DNA from: Escherichia coli
Lineage (GTDB): Bacteria; Pseudomonadota; Gammaproteobacteria; Enterobacterales; Enterobacteriaceae
Reading direction: 5' to 3' (one strand)
DNA: 64,000 bases
NCBI GenBank assembly: GCA_031701365.1
Contig: GCA_031701365.1_4118.1
Part shown: positions 15,822 to 50,929 of the stretch, one piece after another
How positions within the stretch are numbered: the first letter of the stretch is position 1
Layout of the letters: each line of letters begins with the position of its first letter
Program-made: the position numbers and the translations under genes
The notes under the pieces: model-generated
The model's database searches: none
What the model saw: the letters and a program-made list of their open reading frames with translations, nothing else
What the model was told of the DNA's origin: nothing

Positions 15822-16108
15822 AAATTTTAGAAGTCTTGCTAGAAAAAGATGCATCTGGTACTCTTTATGTTGGTAATGAGTTCAGTCCAGATCCAATTGA
15901 TATGTTACAGAGAATCCAAACACTGACTCAAAACATCTCGGTTAAAAAACCGTTTCAGAAAGAATTGGAAATCTTTTGTGATAAAGATATCGAACAGCAT
16001 GATAATGTGATTTCAGATATTAAAAGTCTATTGACAAAAAATGGTTATGTAGAGTATAATCCTCCTATCGTAATCGTTATTCCAGACTTCATGAAAGGAA
16101 CAATCTAA
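15818..16108 (+). CDS. hypothetical protein
   Basis: 96 aa ORF. Confidence 0.5.
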   Translation: MKILEVLLEKDASGTLYVGNEFSPDPIDMLQRIQTLTQNISVKKPFQKELEIFCDKDIEQHDNVISDIKSLLTKNGYVEYNPPIVIVIPDFMKGTI

Positions 16109-16377
16109 TGACTAAAGACGAAATGAAATCTCGCTTAAGCGAACTGAAGAAAGAACGTAAACTAGTACGTTTAGACTGGGATATCCTTAACAGGAAAGAT
16201 GAGCAATCATATGCTAACTGGAGTTCTGATAAAGTACGAAATGACCGTTCTAAAGAAGATGCAAAGCAATTCATGGCATTATCGAAGCGACTATCATCTT
16301 TGAACAGTGAAATTACTGGCCTTCAGAAAGAGATCATTTCCATTCTTAAAGCGGAGATTGAATCACTCTATGAATAA
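16108..16377 (+). CDS. hypothetical coiled-coil protein
   Basis: 89 aa, charged heptad-like sequence. Confidence 0.5.
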   Translation: MTKDEMKSRLSELKKERKLVRLDWDILNRKDEQSYANWSSDKVRNDRSKEDAKQFMALSKRLSSLNSEITGLQKEIISILKAEIESLYE

Positions 16378-16666
16378 ACATGAAGTAATTCATTTTGATG
16401 ATAAGATCTATATTCCAAATATTGATAGTACTGAAACATATTACCTAATCAATAAGATTATGGCTGAAACAAATACGTGTTGTCGTCAACAGCCAGGAAA
16501 ATATGAGTTCAGTCAGACTATTGGTTATTACCGATATGATATGTTAGAATCATTTACAATTGATAAGTCTAAAGTTATTGACATTCTTGTACAGAATGGA
16601 TATAATGAACAACGTGTAAATGATACGGATTTACCAGTTTCAAAAATTGTTCTTTCTAATAATTAA
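16370..16666 (+). CDS. hypothetical protein
   Basis: ATG 16370 overlapping previous stop by 8 nt (track ORF 16307 trimmed). Confidence 0.45.
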   Translation: MNKHEVIHFDDKIYIPNIDSTETYYLINKIMAETNTCCRQQPGKYEFSQTIGYYRYDMLESFTIDKSKVIDILVQNGYNEQRVNDTDLPVSKIVLSNN

Positions 16667-20334: not shown

Positions 20335-20670
<336 letters not shown>

Positions 20671-20671
20671 A

Positions 20672-20854
20672 ATGACACACGAAGAATGGATGTCCAAACA
20701 GCATAAAGAACATGACTGCTTTGGGAATGGTATTCGTCAGGTACATTATGATATTCTCAAAGATATAAATTTATTCATAAAATATGTTTTGGATGAAAAT
20801 AAACATTGGTTTATATATGAGATTGCATATAGAAACTCAAATAAACAAAAATAA
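20672..20854 (+). CDS. MTHEEW-family mini-protein
   Basis: Starts MTHEEWM; ends 'HWFIYEIAYR' like the 20153 copy ('HWFIYELAIR'). Confidence 0.45.
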   Translation: MTHEEWMSKQHKEHDCFGNGIRQVHYDILKDINLFIKYVLDENKHWFIYEIAYRNSNKQK

Positions 20855-20868
20855 ATAAGGAATATATT

Positions 20869-21087
20869 ATGGAAACAACGTTATTTGAAGTTATTCAAGC
20901 ATTAAAAACTGGTGATGACATTCAAGTATTGCTACATGGTTATCGTTTAAAAGGCACTGTGGTTTTAGTTAATGACACAACGTTAGTTATTGCCGAAACA
21001 AATCCATATGATAGTAATCAAGTTGCTAATATCCATATTGATATTAAAAGCATTATTGGTGTAGGCGTAAATAAAAATCAAGAATAA
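20869..21087 (+). CDS. hypothetical protein
   Basis: 72 aa ORF. Confidence 0.45.
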   Translation: METTLFEVIQALKTGDDIQVLLHGYRLKGTVVLVNDTTLVIAETNPYDSNQVANIHIDIKSIIGVGVNKNQE

Positions 21088-21165
21088 CAAATGTTTTTGA
21101 AAAAACCAGAAAATGAATGATTTTTTTGGGACAACTCAAAAATATATGATATAATAATTAGTACA

Positions 21166-21255
<90 letters not shown>

Positions 21256-21259
21256 ATAT

Positions 21260-21361
<102 letters not shown>

Positions 21362-21364
21362 AAC

Positions 21365-21487
21365 CATGACGCATGAAGAATGGATGAATGACATTAATTT
21401 TAGATATGCAGGTTTCGGTAACTGGAGAAAGTATCATTGGGAAATCATGTCAGACCCAGCAGAATACGATAAACTTATAAACCATGA
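21365..21487 (+). CDS. MTHEEW-family mini-protein
   Basis: 40 aa starting MTHEEWM. Confidence 0.35.
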
Positions 21488-21526
21488 AGCGTATCCGTGG
21501 TTCTTTATTGAAATAATGGTACGAAC

Positions 21527-21692
<166 letters not shown>

Positions 21693-21700
21693 AAAAAAAG

Positions 21701-21733
<33 letters not shown>

Positions 21734-21734
21734 A

Positions 21735-22114
<380 letters not shown>

Positions 22115-22171
22115 CTAAATAATTCAGTACTGAGAATATTAATATGTTTAAAGATGAACGTCCAGATTTGT

Positions 22172-22209
<38 letters not shown>

Positions 22210-22214
22210 GAATT

Positions 22215-22557
22215 CCACAATCAGACGTATATGGTGTAAGTTACGTCGATGCTATCCAGAACAAGATCTCTGGTACTCTAGGAAGTGGTGAATGTTAACC
22301 TAGACGGGTTTGATAATTGGACGATAGGCAATTATTACTTGACTAGCAGGTTGAAACTAGAGGTGACAGTCCTTCACCAAACTGGAAAACCGGATGGACT
22401 TTTATTTAAAAGGGTAAGGCGTGGAAATATGTTTACAGAAGTTGCTTTTAGTAGCCTGTACGCACCACGTCAAGGTAGCCGAAAGGTAAGTTAAAACGGG
22501 TGGTTATAAAGCTGAATTAACAGCGGCGTTTAAAAGCGTCACCATCCATTTTTTTTT
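22215..22557 (+). ncRNA. candidate small stable RNA inside the tRNA cluster
   Basis: ~340 nt without a convincing ORF, higher GC, promoter directly upstream, ends in a T9 run (22549-22557). Confidence 0.3.
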
Positions 22558-22573
22558 AATTAAAGTTGGCAAT

Positions 22574-23067
<494 letters not shown>

Positions 23068-23070
23068 TAC

Positions 23071-23226
<156 letters not shown>

Positions 23227-23247
23227 CATAAACAATGAGAGGTATAA

Positions 23248-23765
<518 letters not shown>

Positions 23766-23805
23766 CAGGGGAGGTTGTGATTCCCGATTCAGTAGTTTTA
23801 AAGCT

Positions 23806-23914
<109 letters not shown>

Positions 23915-24075
23915 AGAGGTACTTAGAGTATACTCAGTTCACCTTTAGCTAAAATGGTCACGGTAGAATATTGTTGCAACAGTATTCAGTACTACTTTTT
24001 TAATTGACATAACTTTGAATGGAGTGTATTATGTTCCAAGAAGAAAACTGGGGTTTTTAACATAACGGGGAATGT

Positions 24076-24218
<143 letters not shown>

Positions 24219-24261
24219 AATGCGAAAGAGTATGGAGACTTGTTGGTTATCTTACTTCCTA

Positions 24262-24350
<89 letters not shown>

Positions 24351-50509: not shown

Positions 50510-50929
50510 ATGAAAAAGATTTTTTTAAGTATTATTTTAGTACTTTTTAGTTTTAATGTATATGCAACAGATGCTAAACAGGTTGCAAATACAGTAAAAG
50601 ATGTTATAGTAGATAATGCTCCTACATTAGAGGAAATTGGGGTAAAAACTTGTGATATAGTAATATATAATTTAGTTAATGATGAACGAGTTATGTTGAA
50701 TACGTATGAACAAGTAGTCCCATTGGTTGAATCTGGTGATGCTTTTAGCTTTACATATAAAGTTAAATTAACAGGAGGGGTTGAAGTTAATCTTGACATT
50801 GATACCGCTTCAGTACTAAAAGATAAACTAGGATATGTGTTCAATCGTATTCGTGAAGAAGGTCATCTTAAGTATGTTTATGAAAGTAAAATACTAAAAC
50901 GTGCAATAGTTATAGAAAACTGTAAATGA
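50510..50929 (+). CDS. secreted protein
   Basis: 'MKKIFLSIILVLFSFNVYA|TDA'. Confidence 0.5.
   Translation: MKKIFLSIILVLFSFNVYATDAKQVANTVKDVIVDNAPTLEEIGVKTCDIVIYNLVNDERVMLNTYEQVVPLVESGDAFSFTYKVKLTGGVEVNLDIDTASVLKDKLGYVFNRIREEGHLKYVYESKILKRAIVIENCK

What the first reader, a model, noticed from the sequence alone, without database searches (positions are those of the whole stretch)
22215..22557. Promoter-driven ORF-free segment inside the tRNA cluster: candidate small stable RNA
About 340 nt between the tandem CAGTACTG promoters (ending 22209) and the next gene (22574) lack a convincing ORF; the track's 69-aa ORF 22285-22494 has no RBS and atypical composition. The segment is locally GC-richer than the flanks and ends in a T9 run. 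Established knowledge: T4 encodes small stable RNAs of unknown function (rnaC/rnaD) within its tRNA gene region, so an analogous RNA here is plausible.
Basis: partly seen in the sequence, partly recalled or inferred. Interest (0 to 1): 0.55.

Follow-up and report, generated by a model that had tools for sequence, protein, structure and literature searches.

The report
Two conserved phage non-coding RNAs
The ORF-free stretch in this jumbo phage's tRNA cluster holds two conserved structured non-coding RNAs of unknown function, and one of them, a roughly 188-nt RNA with two pseudoknots, also sits among the tRNA genes of unrelated T4-like and T5-like phages and matches no catalogued RNA family.

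Summary
The window comes from an Asteriusvirus (121Q/PBECO4-like jumbo coliphage).

The interval 22212-22557 is non-coding and holds two independent modules.

- **Module A (22212-22399, about 188 nt).** It has six helices and two pseudoknots that tie down both ends. On an unfitted alignment 90.5% of pair cells are paired, against 26-40% when the partners are slid. In my hand alignment 24 of 39 pair positions show compensatory changes. There are 28 G.U cells and no A.C cells, so the RNA is read from the + strand. Homologues sit between tRNA genes, on the tRNA strand and unannotated, in T4-like Bragavirus, T5-like Novosibvirus, Aeromonas Ishigurovirus and Ceceduovirus, Klebsiella Alcyoneusvirus and metagenomic phages.
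- **Module B (22414-22548, about 135 nt).** It is a stem-loop domain, a GNRA hairpin and a repeated Y-shaped, tRNA-minihelix-like 3' element (B2), followed by T9.

Neither module matches Rfam 15, tRNA or tmRNA models, T4 rnaC/rnaD or the T5 stable RNAs. Neither is found in 5,426 E. coli genomes or 72,556 plasmids. The 69-aa ORF is not conserved. Natural relatives lack A, B or both, so both are accessory.

Function is unknown. My best inference is stable trans-acting RNAs. Expression is not shown.

The parts
22111..22140 (+). Upstream, weaker CAGTACTG-type promoter-like site (TTGACT-18-AATATT).
   Evidence: sequence.
22181..22209 (+). Strong sigma-70-type promoter: TTGACT, 17-nt spacer containing CAGTACTG, and TG-extended TATAAT (22204-22209). 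It predicts a transcription start around 22215-22217, at the 5' end of module A.
   Evidence: 11 of 12 matches, TG present. (motif 10 times against 0.27 expected). In JNE01 the same promoter is fused directly to module B. In K64-1 a different 11/12 promoter ends 8 nt before module A.
22212..22399 (+). Module A: a conserved structured RNA of about 188 nt with helices P1-P6 and two pseudoknots.
   Evidence: The covariance model R1 covers 22211-22404 at 222 bits. Homologues in at least 6 phage genera from several unrelated lineages lie between tRNA genes. Covariation is shown. There is no Rfam match.
22215..22218 (+). PK1 5' strand (CCAC). It pairs with GTGG at 22285-22288 in the P3 loop.
   Evidence: The pair changes are CCAC/GTGG to GCAC/GTGC (Aeromonas phages), CTAC(A)/(T)GTAG (L007) and ACTCAT/ATGAGT (L029).
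22220..22250 (+). P1 hairpin: ATC(A)GACGTA / TACGTCGAT, with a loop containing the conserved ANGRYGYA.
   Evidence: All 6 pair positions covary in the hand alignment. In Mm5 the bulge is deleted and the pairs change in a compensating way.
22256..22273 (+). P2: a variable hairpin (CCAGA...TCTGG). It is shorter in Sdy006 and Prot1, longer in L007 and absent in L029.
22277..22304 (+). P3 hairpin (TCTAGG/CCTAGA). Its loop carries the PK1 3' strand at 22285-22288.
   Evidence: 100% paired, with 4 of 6 pairs showing compensatory changes on the unfitted alignment.
22305..22342 (+). J3/4 (CGGG...), P4 hairpin (22312-22319 / 22329-22336) with the invariant loop GACGATA (22320-22326), and J4/5 (ACTTGA).
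   Evidence: Invariant columns are listed. P4 covaries (AT to TA, GC, GU). J4/5 positions 1-2 covary with P5 loop positions 4-5 (AC/GT, AG/CT, CA/TG, CC/GG).
22343..22360 (+). P5 hairpin (CTAG / CTAG, loop CAGNNNNAAA).
   Evidence: 100% paired. Ceceduovirus has CAAG/CTTG and L029 has CTGG/CCAG.
22362..22378 (+). P6 hairpin (GGTGA/TCACC). Its loop carries the PK2 5' strand GTCC at 22369-22372.
   Evidence: 100% paired. Position 4 is GC, AU, UA or CG.
22396..22399 (+). PK2 3' strand (GGAC). It pairs with the P6 loop GTCC, and it is the last conserved element of module A.
   Evidence: The pair changes are GTCC/GGAC, ACCC/GGGT, GCCC/GGGC and ATCC/GGAT. It is 100% paired.
22399..22412 (+). AT-rich palindrome CTTTTATTTAAAAG between modules A and B. 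It may be a weak terminator or a processing site. It is seen only in Rak2-like phages.
   Evidence: Sequence. Function not tested.
22414..22497 (+). Module B, 5' domain (B1). It has the stem GGCGTGG (22418-22424) / CCACGTC (22465-22471), inner helices, a tip hairpin, and a GNRA hairpin GCC-GAAA-GGT (22478-22487).
   Evidence: The same MFE architecture appears in 8 homologues. Pairing is 92.5%, against 25-44% when slid, with 4 compensatory pairs. B has its own promoter in K64-1, RaK2 and L012 and in JNE01. A B1-like segment occurs in Kuravirus.
22498..22548 (+). Module B, 3' element (B2). It is a Y-shaped three-way junction: a 7-bp closing stem GGGTGGT/ACCATCC, two hairpins, and an unpaired A. 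The closing stem and second hairpin are arranged like a tRNA acceptor/T-arm minihelix.
   Evidence: Nine copies were aligned. Pairing is 96.5%, against 30-62% when slid, with 6 compensatory pairs. Other copies follow tRNA-Ser, tRNA-Arg and other ORF-free segments in K64-1, L013 and EJP2.
22549..22557 (+). T9 run directly after B2. Together with the B2 stem it probably forms an intrinsic terminator.
   Evidence: Sequence. The simple terminator scan does not list it because the stem is branched. Termination is inferred.

Best explanation
The interval encodes two separate structured non-coding RNAs, not a protein.

Module A (22212-22399) is a compact RNA of about 188 nt. Its 5' end pairs with the P3 loop and its 3' end pairs with the P6 loop, so both termini are buried in pseudoknots around a core of invariant junction nucleotides. 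Here, and in Klebsiella phages, it starts a few bases after a strong early promoter. In T4-like, T5-like and Aeromonas phages the same RNA exactly fills a spacer between two tRNA genes. There it would be released by the enzymes that mature the neighbouring tRNAs: cleavage after the upstream CCA and RNase P at the downstream tRNA.

Module B (22414-22548) is a second small RNA. Its 3' end is a reusable Y-shaped, tRNA-minihelix-like element followed by a U-run, which serves as a terminator and/or an end-protecting and processing module.

Shown: the region is non-coding, RNA structure is under strand-specific selection, the boundaries are consistent, the modules are separable and dispensable, and they are restricted to virulent phages.

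Inferred: both accumulate as stable trans-acting RNAs. Module A most likely acts by binding a host or phage factor of the tRNA/translation or RNA-directed defence machinery, as a decoy, sponge or cofactor. A catalytic or ligand-binding role is also possible.
For: Non-coding:
- The ORF is not conserved and has only a marginal PHROG match, while the flanking genes score about 1e-81.
- Modules A and B occur separately: EJP2 has A only, JNE01 has B only, and phAPEC6 has neither.

Structure of module A:
- On the unfitted MAFFT alignment A1, 90.5% of pair cells are paired, against 26.5-39.8% when slid. The covariation score is 0.322, against 0.044-0.089 when slid, and 0 of 500 shuffles reach it. P3, P5, P6 and PK2 are 100% paired with compensatory changes.
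- In the hand structural alignment, 781 of 782 pair cells are canonical and 24 of 39 positions change on both sides.
- There are 28 G.U cells and 0 A.C cells, so the RNA is read from the + strand.
- A distant homologue that was not used to build the model (L029, 32 bits, E = 3e-7) keeps PK1 with a completely different sequence, ACTCAT/ATGAGT.

Boundaries:
- The RNA begins 1-4 nt after the upstream tRNA and ends a few nt (7-15 in the loci checked) before the next tRNA in Bragavirus and Novosibvirus. In Aeromonas phages it also begins right after a tRNA, but about 85-90 nt separate it from the next tRNA.
- It begins about 7 nt after a -10 box here and in K64-1.

Distribution:
- It is found in at least 6 phage genera from several unrelated lineages, always on the tRNA strand.
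- It is absent from E. coli genomes and from plasmids.

Module B and B2 structure.

Precedent: the T4 and T5 records annotate stable RNAs of unknown function in their tRNA regions. A distant Rak2 relative, PA5oct, expresses abundant ncRNAs by RNA-seq (PMC7318152).
Against: - There are no expression data for this phage or any homologue, so transcript ends and stability are inferred.
- Module A alone is not thermodynamically exceptional (z = -1.26), and its MFE fold differs from the comparative structure.
- The sequences form a few clades, so some covariation counts are inflated by shared ancestry.
- The hand alignment was built with the structure in mind. The unfitted alignment A1 was used as a check.
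- Nothing found here points to a specific partner or activity.
- Natural deletions show the RNAs are not needed for propagation.
Confidence: 0.8

Rival explanations
1. The interval encodes small proteins, such as the 69-aa ORF at 22285-22494, which is annotated as a hypothetical protein in several GenBank relatives.
For: The ORF exists. It is annotated in 121Q and other records. It has a marginal PHROG hit with E = 0.0084.
Against: The ORF starts with GTG and has no RBS. It straddles two modules that occur separately. It is broken in K64-1 by an inserted promoter, leaving only 45 aa. In PM2 only a 20-aa remnant overlaps module A. Substitutions are compensatory in helices rather than codon-periodic.
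Confidence: 0.03
2. The interval is a cis-acting 5' leader, such as a riboswitch, attenuator or thermometer, that controls the downstream gene at 22574.
For: It lies between a promoter and a gene. It is highly structured, with an invariant core like an aptamer. B2 plus T9 could be a conditional terminator.
Against: In T4-like, T5-like and Aeromonas phages module A lies between tRNA genes with no downstream CDS. In K64-1 and L012 a promoter separates A from B. In phAPEC6 the gene is fused to the promoter without A or B. B2 copies also follow tRNAs.
Confidence: 0.05
3. The conservation reflects a DNA-level element, such as a homing-endonuclease target, a recombination hotspot or a promoter array, spread by horizontal transfer rather than a functional RNA.
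For: Identity between unrelated phage families is 85-91%. A segD-like endonuclease gene lies nearby in Sdy006. T4 and T5 tRNA regions carry seg and HNH genes. B2 copies overlap promoter-like hexamers, with an 11/12 match in K64-1.
Against: Divergent lineages at 45-58% identity keep every helix through compensatory changes. The 28 G.U cells against 0 A.C cells show selection on one transcribed strand. The boundaries coincide with tRNA processing sites and transcription starts, not with endonuclease genes.
Confidence: 0.05
4. Module A is a ribozyme or ligand-binding RNA, for example a self-processing element or a minimal RNase P-like catalyst acting on the tRNA transcripts.
For: It has 45 invariant columns concentrated in junctions and loops, two pseudoknots and an extra 2-bp tertiary pairing. 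This density is typical of catalytic or aptamer cores. It is constantly linked to tRNA genes. By eye, GAGGUGACAGUCC...GGAC recalls RNase P CR-I/P4 (recalled from memory).
Against: There is no Rfam match to any ribozyme, riboswitch or RNase P model, even at E <= 10. The helix order does not map onto the RNase P P2/P4 topology (inference). The hosts already have RNase P, and other tRNA spacers in the same phages lack the element.
Confidence: 0.12
5. The modules are degenerate tRNA genes or tRNA-like pseudogenes without function.
For: They lie in a tRNA cluster. B2 has a 7-bp stem stacked on a hairpin, like an acceptor/T-arm, with G3.U70-like geometry and an unpaired A.
Against: ARAGORN and the Rfam tRNA, tmRNA and tRNA-Sec models find nothing there. 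Module A has no acceptor-type pairing of its ends. Purifying selection with covariation across families argues against pseudogenes.
Confidence: 0.04

Closest known systems
Bacteriophage T4 rnaC and rnaD (species 1 and species 2 stable RNAs)
   Same: They are small ORF-free RNAs encoded inside the phage tRNA gene cluster on the tRNA strand. They abut tRNA genes, presumably mature together with the tRNAs, are dispensable, and have no known function (annotation; background from established T4 literature).
   Different: There is no detectable homology. Covariance model R1 gives nothing better than E = 3.7 in the T4 tRNA region. The T4 RNAs are shorter (119 and 139 nt), and by eye parts of them look tRNA-like: rnaD ends in ...CACCA and rnaC has a GGTTCGAATCC T-arm. 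Module A has neither feature. It has two pseudoknots and is shared across phage families.
Bacteriophage T5 stable RNAs (rnaI, rnaIII, rnaIV, rna1, rna2, rna2H, rna3, rnaX)
   Same: They are annotated as 'stable RNA with unknown functions' or 'tRNA-like stable RNA'. They are interspersed with tRNA genes and early promoters. Module A occurs in the T5-like genus Novosibvirus in the same kind of position.
   Different: The covariance model finds no hit in T5 25-50 kb. BLAST finds no similarity beyond one 11-mer. None of the T5 RNAs is reported to be shared with T4-like or jumbo phages.
GOLLD and ROOL large ornate RNAs (Rfam)
   Same: They are phage- or prophage-associated, often next to tRNA genes, elaborately structured with pseudoknots, and lack an established function (my knowledge of the Breaker and Weinberg descriptions).
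   Different: They are much larger (roughly 500-800 nt) and come from different hosts (Lactobacillales, rumen and lake bacteria). Rfam 15 holds both, and neither matches here at E <= 10.
tRNA-like 3'-end processing modules (MALAT1 mascRNA, plant mitochondrial t-elements) and branched intrinsic terminators, as analogues for B2
   Same: Each is a compact acceptor/T-arm-like fold placed at the 3' end of another RNA. It could recruit RNase P, RNase Z or the CCA-adding enzyme, or simply stop transcription. B2 recurs behind different upstream RNAs.
   Different: Recognition of B2 by tRNA enzymes is untested and no tRNA model scores it. Several copies also overlap promoter-like hexamers.
Exoribonuclease-resistant RNAs (xrRNAs) of flaviviruses, a topological analogy only
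   Same: The 5' end pairs into an internal loop and an apical loop pairs with the 3' tail, which buries the ends.
   Different: There is no sequence or size similarity. E. coli lacks a 5'-3' exonuclease of the Xrn1 type. The analogy is an inference from the helix topology and was not tested.

Membership tests
Any Rfam 15 family (4227 covariance models) | A match to the family covariance model at or near its gathering score. | tested here: not met
   Only tRNAs appear in the window at gathering threshold. At E <= 10 over 22100-22700 there are only two chance-level hits, SNORA16 at 14 bits and HIV-1_SL3 at 12.5 bits. Nothing overlaps modules A or B in six related loci at E <= 1.
tRNA / tmRNA | A cloverleaf or tRNA-like domain detected by ARAGORN or by the Rfam tRNA, tmRNA or tRNA-Sec models. 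| tested here: not met
   ARAGORN finds 6 tRNAs in the window, none in 22212-22557, and no tmRNA. The same holds for related loci.
RNase P RNA | Conserved regions CR-I to CR-V with the P4 pseudoknot in the P2/P4 topology, and a match to RNaseP_bact_a, RNaseP_bact_b, RNaseP_arch, RNaseP_nuc or RNaseP-T. | tested here: not met
   No RNase P model matches at E <= 10. The helix order PK1-P1-P2-P3-P4-P5-P6-PK2 does not map onto P1-P2-P3-P4...P2'-P4' (inference). Catalysis cannot be tested here.
T4 rnaC/rnaD and T5 stable-RNA families | Sequence or structure homology to those RNAs. | tested here: not met
   Covariance model R1 finds nothing in the T4 tRNA region (best E = 3.7). It finds nothing in T5 25-50 kb. 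BLAST of the T5 RNAs against all loci gives only short chance matches.
Phage tRNA-cluster stable RNAs (a kind defined by context) | ORF-free, inside a tRNA gene cluster, and on the same strand as the tRNAs. | tested here: met
   Window tRNAs lie at 20357-24340 on the + strand. All homologues are co-oriented with adjacent tRNAs. The ORF is not conserved.
Phage tRNA-cluster stable RNAs (a kind defined by context) | Accumulates as a discrete, metabolically stable RNA during infection. | not testable with these tools
   No transcript data are available. Indirect support only: the ends are sequestered in pseudoknots and the boundaries are consistent.
Structured RNA under selection (generic) | Compensatory base changes that maintain helices, exceeding the controls. 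| tested here: met
   Module A: (0 of 500 shuffles; the slid controls are 3-7 times lower). B2. B1: (small sample).
Protein-coding gene | An ORF conserved in homologues, with a family match. | tested here: not met
   The modules also occur separately.
Intrinsic (Rho-independent) terminator, for B2 plus T9 | A stable GC-containing stem immediately followed by a U-run. | tested here: inconclusive
   In the window the 7-bp closing stem is followed by A plus T9. The stem is branched, so the scan does not list it. Other copies have AAATTTTAATTT, an interrupted run. One copy lies directly upstream of module A and carries a promoter.

The most novel reading that the evidence does not exclude
Module A is a previously undescribed class of compact, doubly pseudoknotted functional RNA. 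It would be either a ribozyme or ligand-binding RNA, or a decoy aimed at a host factor that acts on tRNA or RNA, for example an RNA-directed anti-phage effector. It would have been exchanged horizontally among unrelated virulent phages of Enterobacterales and Aeromonas as part of their tRNA cassettes. B2 would be a portable tRNA-mimicking end module.
Probability: 0.3. Interest if true: 0.85.

Novelty: new member of a known kind. Interest (0 to 1): 0.62.

Why it matters
Small stable RNAs in phage tRNA regions (T4 rnaC/rnaD and the T5 RNAs) have been known for about fifty years without a function. Each was known from essentially one phage lineage, so comparative analysis had little to work with.

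Module A is shared by jumbo, T4-like and T5-like phages, with enough divergence to define its fold and its invariant core. It occurs in cultivable coliphages. Natural variants exist that lack A, B or both (EJP2, JNE01, phAPEC6).

That makes the question directly testable through deletion and complementation, pull-downs and host-panel assays. It also adds at least two unannotated RNA families, plus a repeated 3' element, that current phage annotation mislabels as hypothetical proteins or leaves blank.

Tried and rejected
- **Rfam.** Scans at gathering threshold and at E <= 10 or E <= 1 found nothing. ARAGORN found nothing in the interval.
- **Homology to known phage RNAs.** The covariance model found nothing in T4 rnaC/rnaD, in the T5 stable RNAs or in the RNA-seq-defined ncRNAs of PA5oct.
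- **Host or plasmid origin.** There was no match in 5,426 E. coli genomes or 72,556 plasmids.
- **Collection scans.** An exact-motif scan of bacterial genomes found nothing. A gapped motif gave 120 or more loci, all chance by nhmmer. The metagenome scan added only three true copies. A B2 pattern (TATAAANNTGAATTNACAG) was too loose and returned mostly chance matches from viral contigs. The second window hit, at 50756, lies in coding sequence.
- **Thermodynamic support for module A alone.** It is not significant, and the MFE is not the real fold.
- **CM-guided realignment.** It did not fix the 5' half for the Aeromonas sequences, so I built a hand structural alignment and kept the unfitted A1 as a check.
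- **All-against-all covariation scan.** It was dominated by clade effects. Only the J4/5-L5 pairing stood out.
- **A putative hairpin CTGG-AAAA-CCGG (22382-22393).** It is not maintained in Aeromonas phages or L007, so I left it unpaired.
- **Ideas dropped after inspection.**
  - Shine-Dalgarno mimicry by GAGGTGA: only GAGGT is conserved, and the rest covaries within P6.
  - T-box-like pairing of the P1 loop with tRNA CCA ends: the loop sequence is not conserved.
  - ATCC/GGAT and CGG/CCG long-range pairs: not supported in all clades.
  - RNase P CR-I/P4 resemblance: the topology does not fit.
- **Literature searches.** They found no description of these RNAs.
Full report
**Source and observation**

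The window is from an Asteriusvirus, the Rak2-like group of jumbo coliphages. The region 22100-22700 is 98.5% identical to Escherichia phage 121Q and 98.0% to PBECO4.

- Two promoter-like sites share the spacer motif CAGTACTG. One is at 22111-22140. The stronger one is at 22181-22209 (TTGACT-17-TATAAT, TG-extended, 11 of 12 matches).
- The motif TTGACN7TTCAGTACTG occurs 10 times in the window, against 0.27 expected.
- The only sizeable ORF is 22285-22494 (69 aa, GTG start).
- GC is about 0.42, against 0.26-0.31 in the flanks.
- A T9 run lies at 22549-22557 and the next gene starts at 22574.
- tRNA genes lie on both sides, at 20357, 21166, 22977, 23071, 23154 and 24267, all on the + strand.

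**Not a protein gene**

The 69-aa ORF has only a marginal PHROG score (E = 0.0084, no stretch passing on its own). The two flanking ORFs match PHROG families at about 1e-81.

In Klebsiella phage K64-1 the corresponding ORF is broken, leaving 45 aa. In Proteus phage PM2 only a 20-aa remnant overlaps the homologous segment. The ORF also straddles two modules that occur separately in other phages, as described below.

**No catalogued RNA**

Rfam 15 reports only tRNAs in the window at gathering threshold. At E <= 10 over 22100-22700 there are only chance-level matches. Nothing overlaps the homologous segments of six related loci at E <= 1. ARAGORN finds no tRNA or tmRNA in the interval.

**The key result: cross-family conservation of the 5' half**

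A sensitive BLAST of 22205-22565 against 50,697 phage records showed three things:
- The whole interval is 97-99% identical in Asteriusvirus.
- It is about 80% identical, with an insertion, in Klebsiella Alcyoneusvirus (RaK2, K64-1).
- The 5' half alone (about 22211-22397) is 85-91% identical in T4-like Bragavirus (Proteus PM2 and Pm5461, Morganella Mm5, Shigella SdyM_006) and in T5-like Novosibvirus (Proteus phages 1, 2 and M4H10_20). A 64-nt core also matches Aeromonas T4-like phages.

In every case the match is an unannotated spacer inside the tRNA cluster:
- PM2 and SdyM_006: between tRNA-Gly and tRNA-Asp.
- Proteus phage 1: between tRNA-Leu and tRNA-Ser.
- Aeromonas phages 65, avDM6, AP1 and ZPAH1: after tRNA-Pro and before tRNA-Thr.
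- Mm5: immediately before tRNA-Glu.

ARAGORN confirms that all copies are on the tRNA strand. The Mm5 record annotates its tRNAs on the wrong strand.

Iterating from the divergent copies added the Ceceduovirus phages. Motif scans added a 120-kb viral contig (L007) and three metagenomic copies.

A control interval 1.2 kb away (23730-24270) is only 82-95% identical within Asteriusvirus and has no cross-family match.

No homologue exists in 5,426 complete E. coli genomes or in 72,556 plasmids. Among pattern matches sampled from bacterial genomes, none is a true homologue.

**Two modules**

The interval splits into module A (22212-22399) and module B (22414-22548).
- EJP2 has A without B at this locus.
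- JNE01 has the same promoter fused directly to B, with no A.
- K64-1, RaK2 and metagenomic L012 and L013 have a separate promoter between A and B.
- phAPEC6 and relatives keep the promoter and the first 37 nt or so of A. They have lost the rest of A and all of B, which fuses the promoter to the homologue of the gene at 22574.

Both modules are therefore separable and dispensable.

**Module A structure**

Nineteen distinct sequences (45-89% identical between clades) support six helices and two pseudoknots. Window coordinates are:

| Element | Strands |
|---|---|
| PK1 | 22215-18 with 22285-88 (in the P3 loop) |
| P1 | 22220-29 with 22242-50 |
| P2 | 22256-60 with 22269-73 (variable) |
| P3 | 22277-82 with 22299-304 |
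| P4 | 22312-19 with 22329-36 (invariant loop GACGATA) |
| P5 | 22343-46 with 22357-60 |
| P6 | 22362-66 with 22374-78 |
| PK2 | P6 loop 22369-72 with 22396-99 (the last conserved nucleotides) |

On the MAFFT alignment A1, which was not fitted to any structure:
- 90.5% of pair cells are paired, against 26.5-39.8% when the partners are slid by 1-3 columns.
- The covariation score is 0.322, against 0.044-0.089 when slid.
- None of 500 column shuffles reaches the observed pairing or covariation.
- P3, P5, P6 and PK2 are 100% paired with compensatory changes.

MAFFT misaligns the 5' half of the Aeromonas sequences, and realignment with a covariance model did not cure this. I therefore made a hand structural alignment and checked it against the raw sequences. 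In it, 781 of 782 pair cells are canonical and 24 of 39 positions change on both sides.

Examples of the changes:
- PK2 is GTCC/GGAC, ACCC/GGGT, GCCC/GGGC or ATCC/GGAT.
- PK1 is CCAC/GTGG, GCAC/GTGC or CTACA/TGTAG.

G.U pairs number 28 and A.C pairs number 0. The selected molecule is therefore an RNA read from the + strand, not a DNA cruciform or an antisense transcript.

A further 2-bp tertiary contact covaries in several independent steps. It joins the first two nucleotides of J4/5 to positions 4-5 of the P5 loop, as AC/GT, AG/CT, CA/TG or CC/GG.

Forty-five columns are invariant. They are concentrated in junctions and loops: CGGG, GACGATA, TTGA, CAG..AA, GAGG, AAAC and ATGG.

The covariance model R1 also found a distant homologue that was not used to build it. 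It lies right after a tRNA-Leu in a 259-kb viral contig (L029, 32 bits, E = 3e-7). It keeps P1, P3, J3/4, P4 (with a 17-nt GACGATA loop) and P5 (as CTGG/CCAG). It keeps PK1 with an entirely different sequence, ACTCAT/ATGAGT.

A caution on thermodynamics: single-sequence folding does not recover this structure, and module A alone gives z = -1.26. The evidence is comparative.

**Boundaries and biogenesis (partly inferred)**

- In tRNA-flanked copies the element begins 1-4 nt after the upstream CCA, within the common spacer AAUU.
- In Bragavirus and Novosibvirus PK2 ends a few nt (7-15 in the loci checked) before the next tRNA. In Aeromonas phages about 85-90 nt separate it from the next tRNA.
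- Here the -10 box ends at 22209, which predicts a start at 22215-22217.
- In K64-1 a different 11/12 promoter ends 8 nt before the element.

The same RNA ends can thus be produced either by transcription initiation or by the normal maturation of neighbouring tRNAs. Both ends are locked in pseudoknots, which should protect them from exonucleases and from 5'-end-dependent RNase E. That last point is an inference.

**Module B**

Eight homologues give the same fold:
- the stem GGCGTGG/CCACGTC (22418-24 / 22465-71),
- two inner helices,
- a GNRA hairpin (22478-87),
- and B2 (22498-22548).

B1 pairing is 92.5%, against 25-44% when slid, with four compensatory pairs, in a small sample.

B2 is a three-way junction with a 7-bp closing stem and two hairpins. 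The second hairpin abuts the 3' strand of the closing stem, as a T-arm abuts an acceptor stem. An unpaired A and then T9 follow.

B2 is a repeated element. Further copies follow tRNA-Ser and tRNA-Arg, follow another ORF-free segment, and sit directly upstream of module A in K64-1 and L013. A copy also lies between tRNA-Ser and tRNA-Arg in EJP2. Nine copies are 96.5% paired with six compensatory pairs, and 0 of 500 shuffles reach this.

In most copies the run after the stem is AAATTTTAATTT. One copy carries a strong promoter across its 3' half. A pure terminator role is therefore not established.

A B1-like segment (84% over 50 nt) occurs in Kuravirus podophages. It lies inside a 790-nt unannotated gap that ends in a tRNA-like T-arm and acceptor.

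**Comparison with known RNAs**

T4 annotates rnaC and rnaD, and T5 annotates eight 'stable RNAs with unknown functions', all within their tRNA regions. These are the closest known kind.

They are not homologues. R1 finds nothing in either region, and BLAST of the T5 RNAs finds nothing significant. The abundant ncRNAs found by RNA-seq in the distant relative PA5oct (PMC7318152) are not homologous either.

GOLLD and ROOL share the tRNA and phage association and the ornate structure. They are far larger and do not match.

The resemblance of GAGGUGACAGUCC...GGAC to RNase P CR-I/P4 is superficial. No RNase P model matches, and the helix order differs.

**What it most likely does**

Shown:
- The interval holds two non-coding, strand-specifically selected, modular and dispensable RNAs.
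- They are restricted to virulent phages.
- Their position is tied to tRNA clusters.

Inferred:
- They accumulate as stable trans-acting RNAs.
- Module A has a dense invariant core and buried ends. Its phages all infect Enterobacterales or Aeromonas.
- This points to a specific macromolecular partner, or possibly a catalytic or ligand-binding core, within tRNA/translation or RNA-directed defence. I put that functional reading at roughly 0.3-0.4, and the ribozyme or aptamer alternative at about 0.1.
- B2 most likely ends or protects transcripts, possibly by mimicking a tRNA minihelix.

**Verdict**

It is a new member, in fact two new families, of the old and unexplained class of phage tRNA-cluster stable RNAs. 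For the first time such an RNA has a cross-family distribution and a defined fold. Expression and function remain to be shown.

Noticed in passing
L025 (Escherichia phage vB-EcoP-XT18, Kuravirus) 1013-1803: A 790-nt unannotated gap contains a segment 84% identical to module B1 (L025 1501-1550). It ends in a tRNA-like T-arm plus acceptor (...GTAGGTCCGAACCCTACACCTGTAACCA). Neither ARAGORN nor Rfam reports anything there. It may be a large tRNA-like structured RNA.
   Followed up: partly
L004 (Klebsiella phage K64-1) 1334-1492: Another ORF-free segment with a long-range stem (AACAGGT...ACCTGTT) lies between tRNA-Gly and a B2-like element. That B2-like copy contains an 11/12 sigma-70 promoter (TTGACA-17-TATTAT, 1464-1492), which places the transcription start at the 5' end of module A.
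   Followed up: partly
L277 (Escherichia phage phAPEC6) 1476-1560: This is a natural deletion. The CAGTACTG promoter and the first 37 nt or so of module A are fused to the homologue of the window gene at 22574. The rest of A and all of B are missing. G17, Sharanji, ECO103 4-12-1 and EC22.5-2 match only the same 42 nt.
   Followed up: yes
window 21366-21530 and 21527-21691: Two adjacent 54-aa ORFs both begin MTHEEWM, which looks like a tandem duplication. phAPEC6 has three 165-nt CDSs in tandem at the same place.
   Followed up: no
window 20357-20429: ARAGORN calls tRNA-Gly(TCC) here, but the Rfam tRNA model does not list it at gathering threshold, although it lists the other five tRNAs.
   Followed up: no
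L005, L006 and L019 (Aeromonas phages), about 85-90 nt between module A and tRNA-Thr; L007 325-520: Further ORF-free spacer sequence follows module A and forms conserved-looking hairpins (for example GGTTGA...TCAACC and GGATATAATCA...TGATTATATTCC). These may be additional small RNAs. They are not homologous to module B.
   Followed up: no
L155 (phage T5) rnaX, locus 15849-16567, minus strand: rnaX contains AAACTGGAAAA, identical to 11 nt of module A (22379-22389), and a second AAACTGGAA, each preceded by GTCACCTTGAC. This is probably chance, but the motif repeats within rnaX.
   Followed up: no
L023 (Morganella phage vB_Mm5, PP397179.1) 597-915: The GenBank record annotates four tRNAs on the strand opposite to the one ARAGORN finds. 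This looks like an annotation error.
   Followed up: yes
L029 (259-kb viral contig IMGVR_UViG_3300031087_000527) 1096-1169: This contig carries the distant module A homologue. It also carries a predicted suppressor-type tRNA with anticodon CTA, which ARAGORN labels tRNA-Pyl.
   Followed up: no
window 23730-24270: A stretch of about 540 nt lies between an ORF and tRNA-Thr and has two promoter-like sites (23738 and 24004). Its only ORFs are short (63 aa on the minus strand, 29 aa on the plus strand), and relatives annotate hypothetical proteins there. It is conserved only within Asteriusvirus, at 82-95%.
   Followed up: partly
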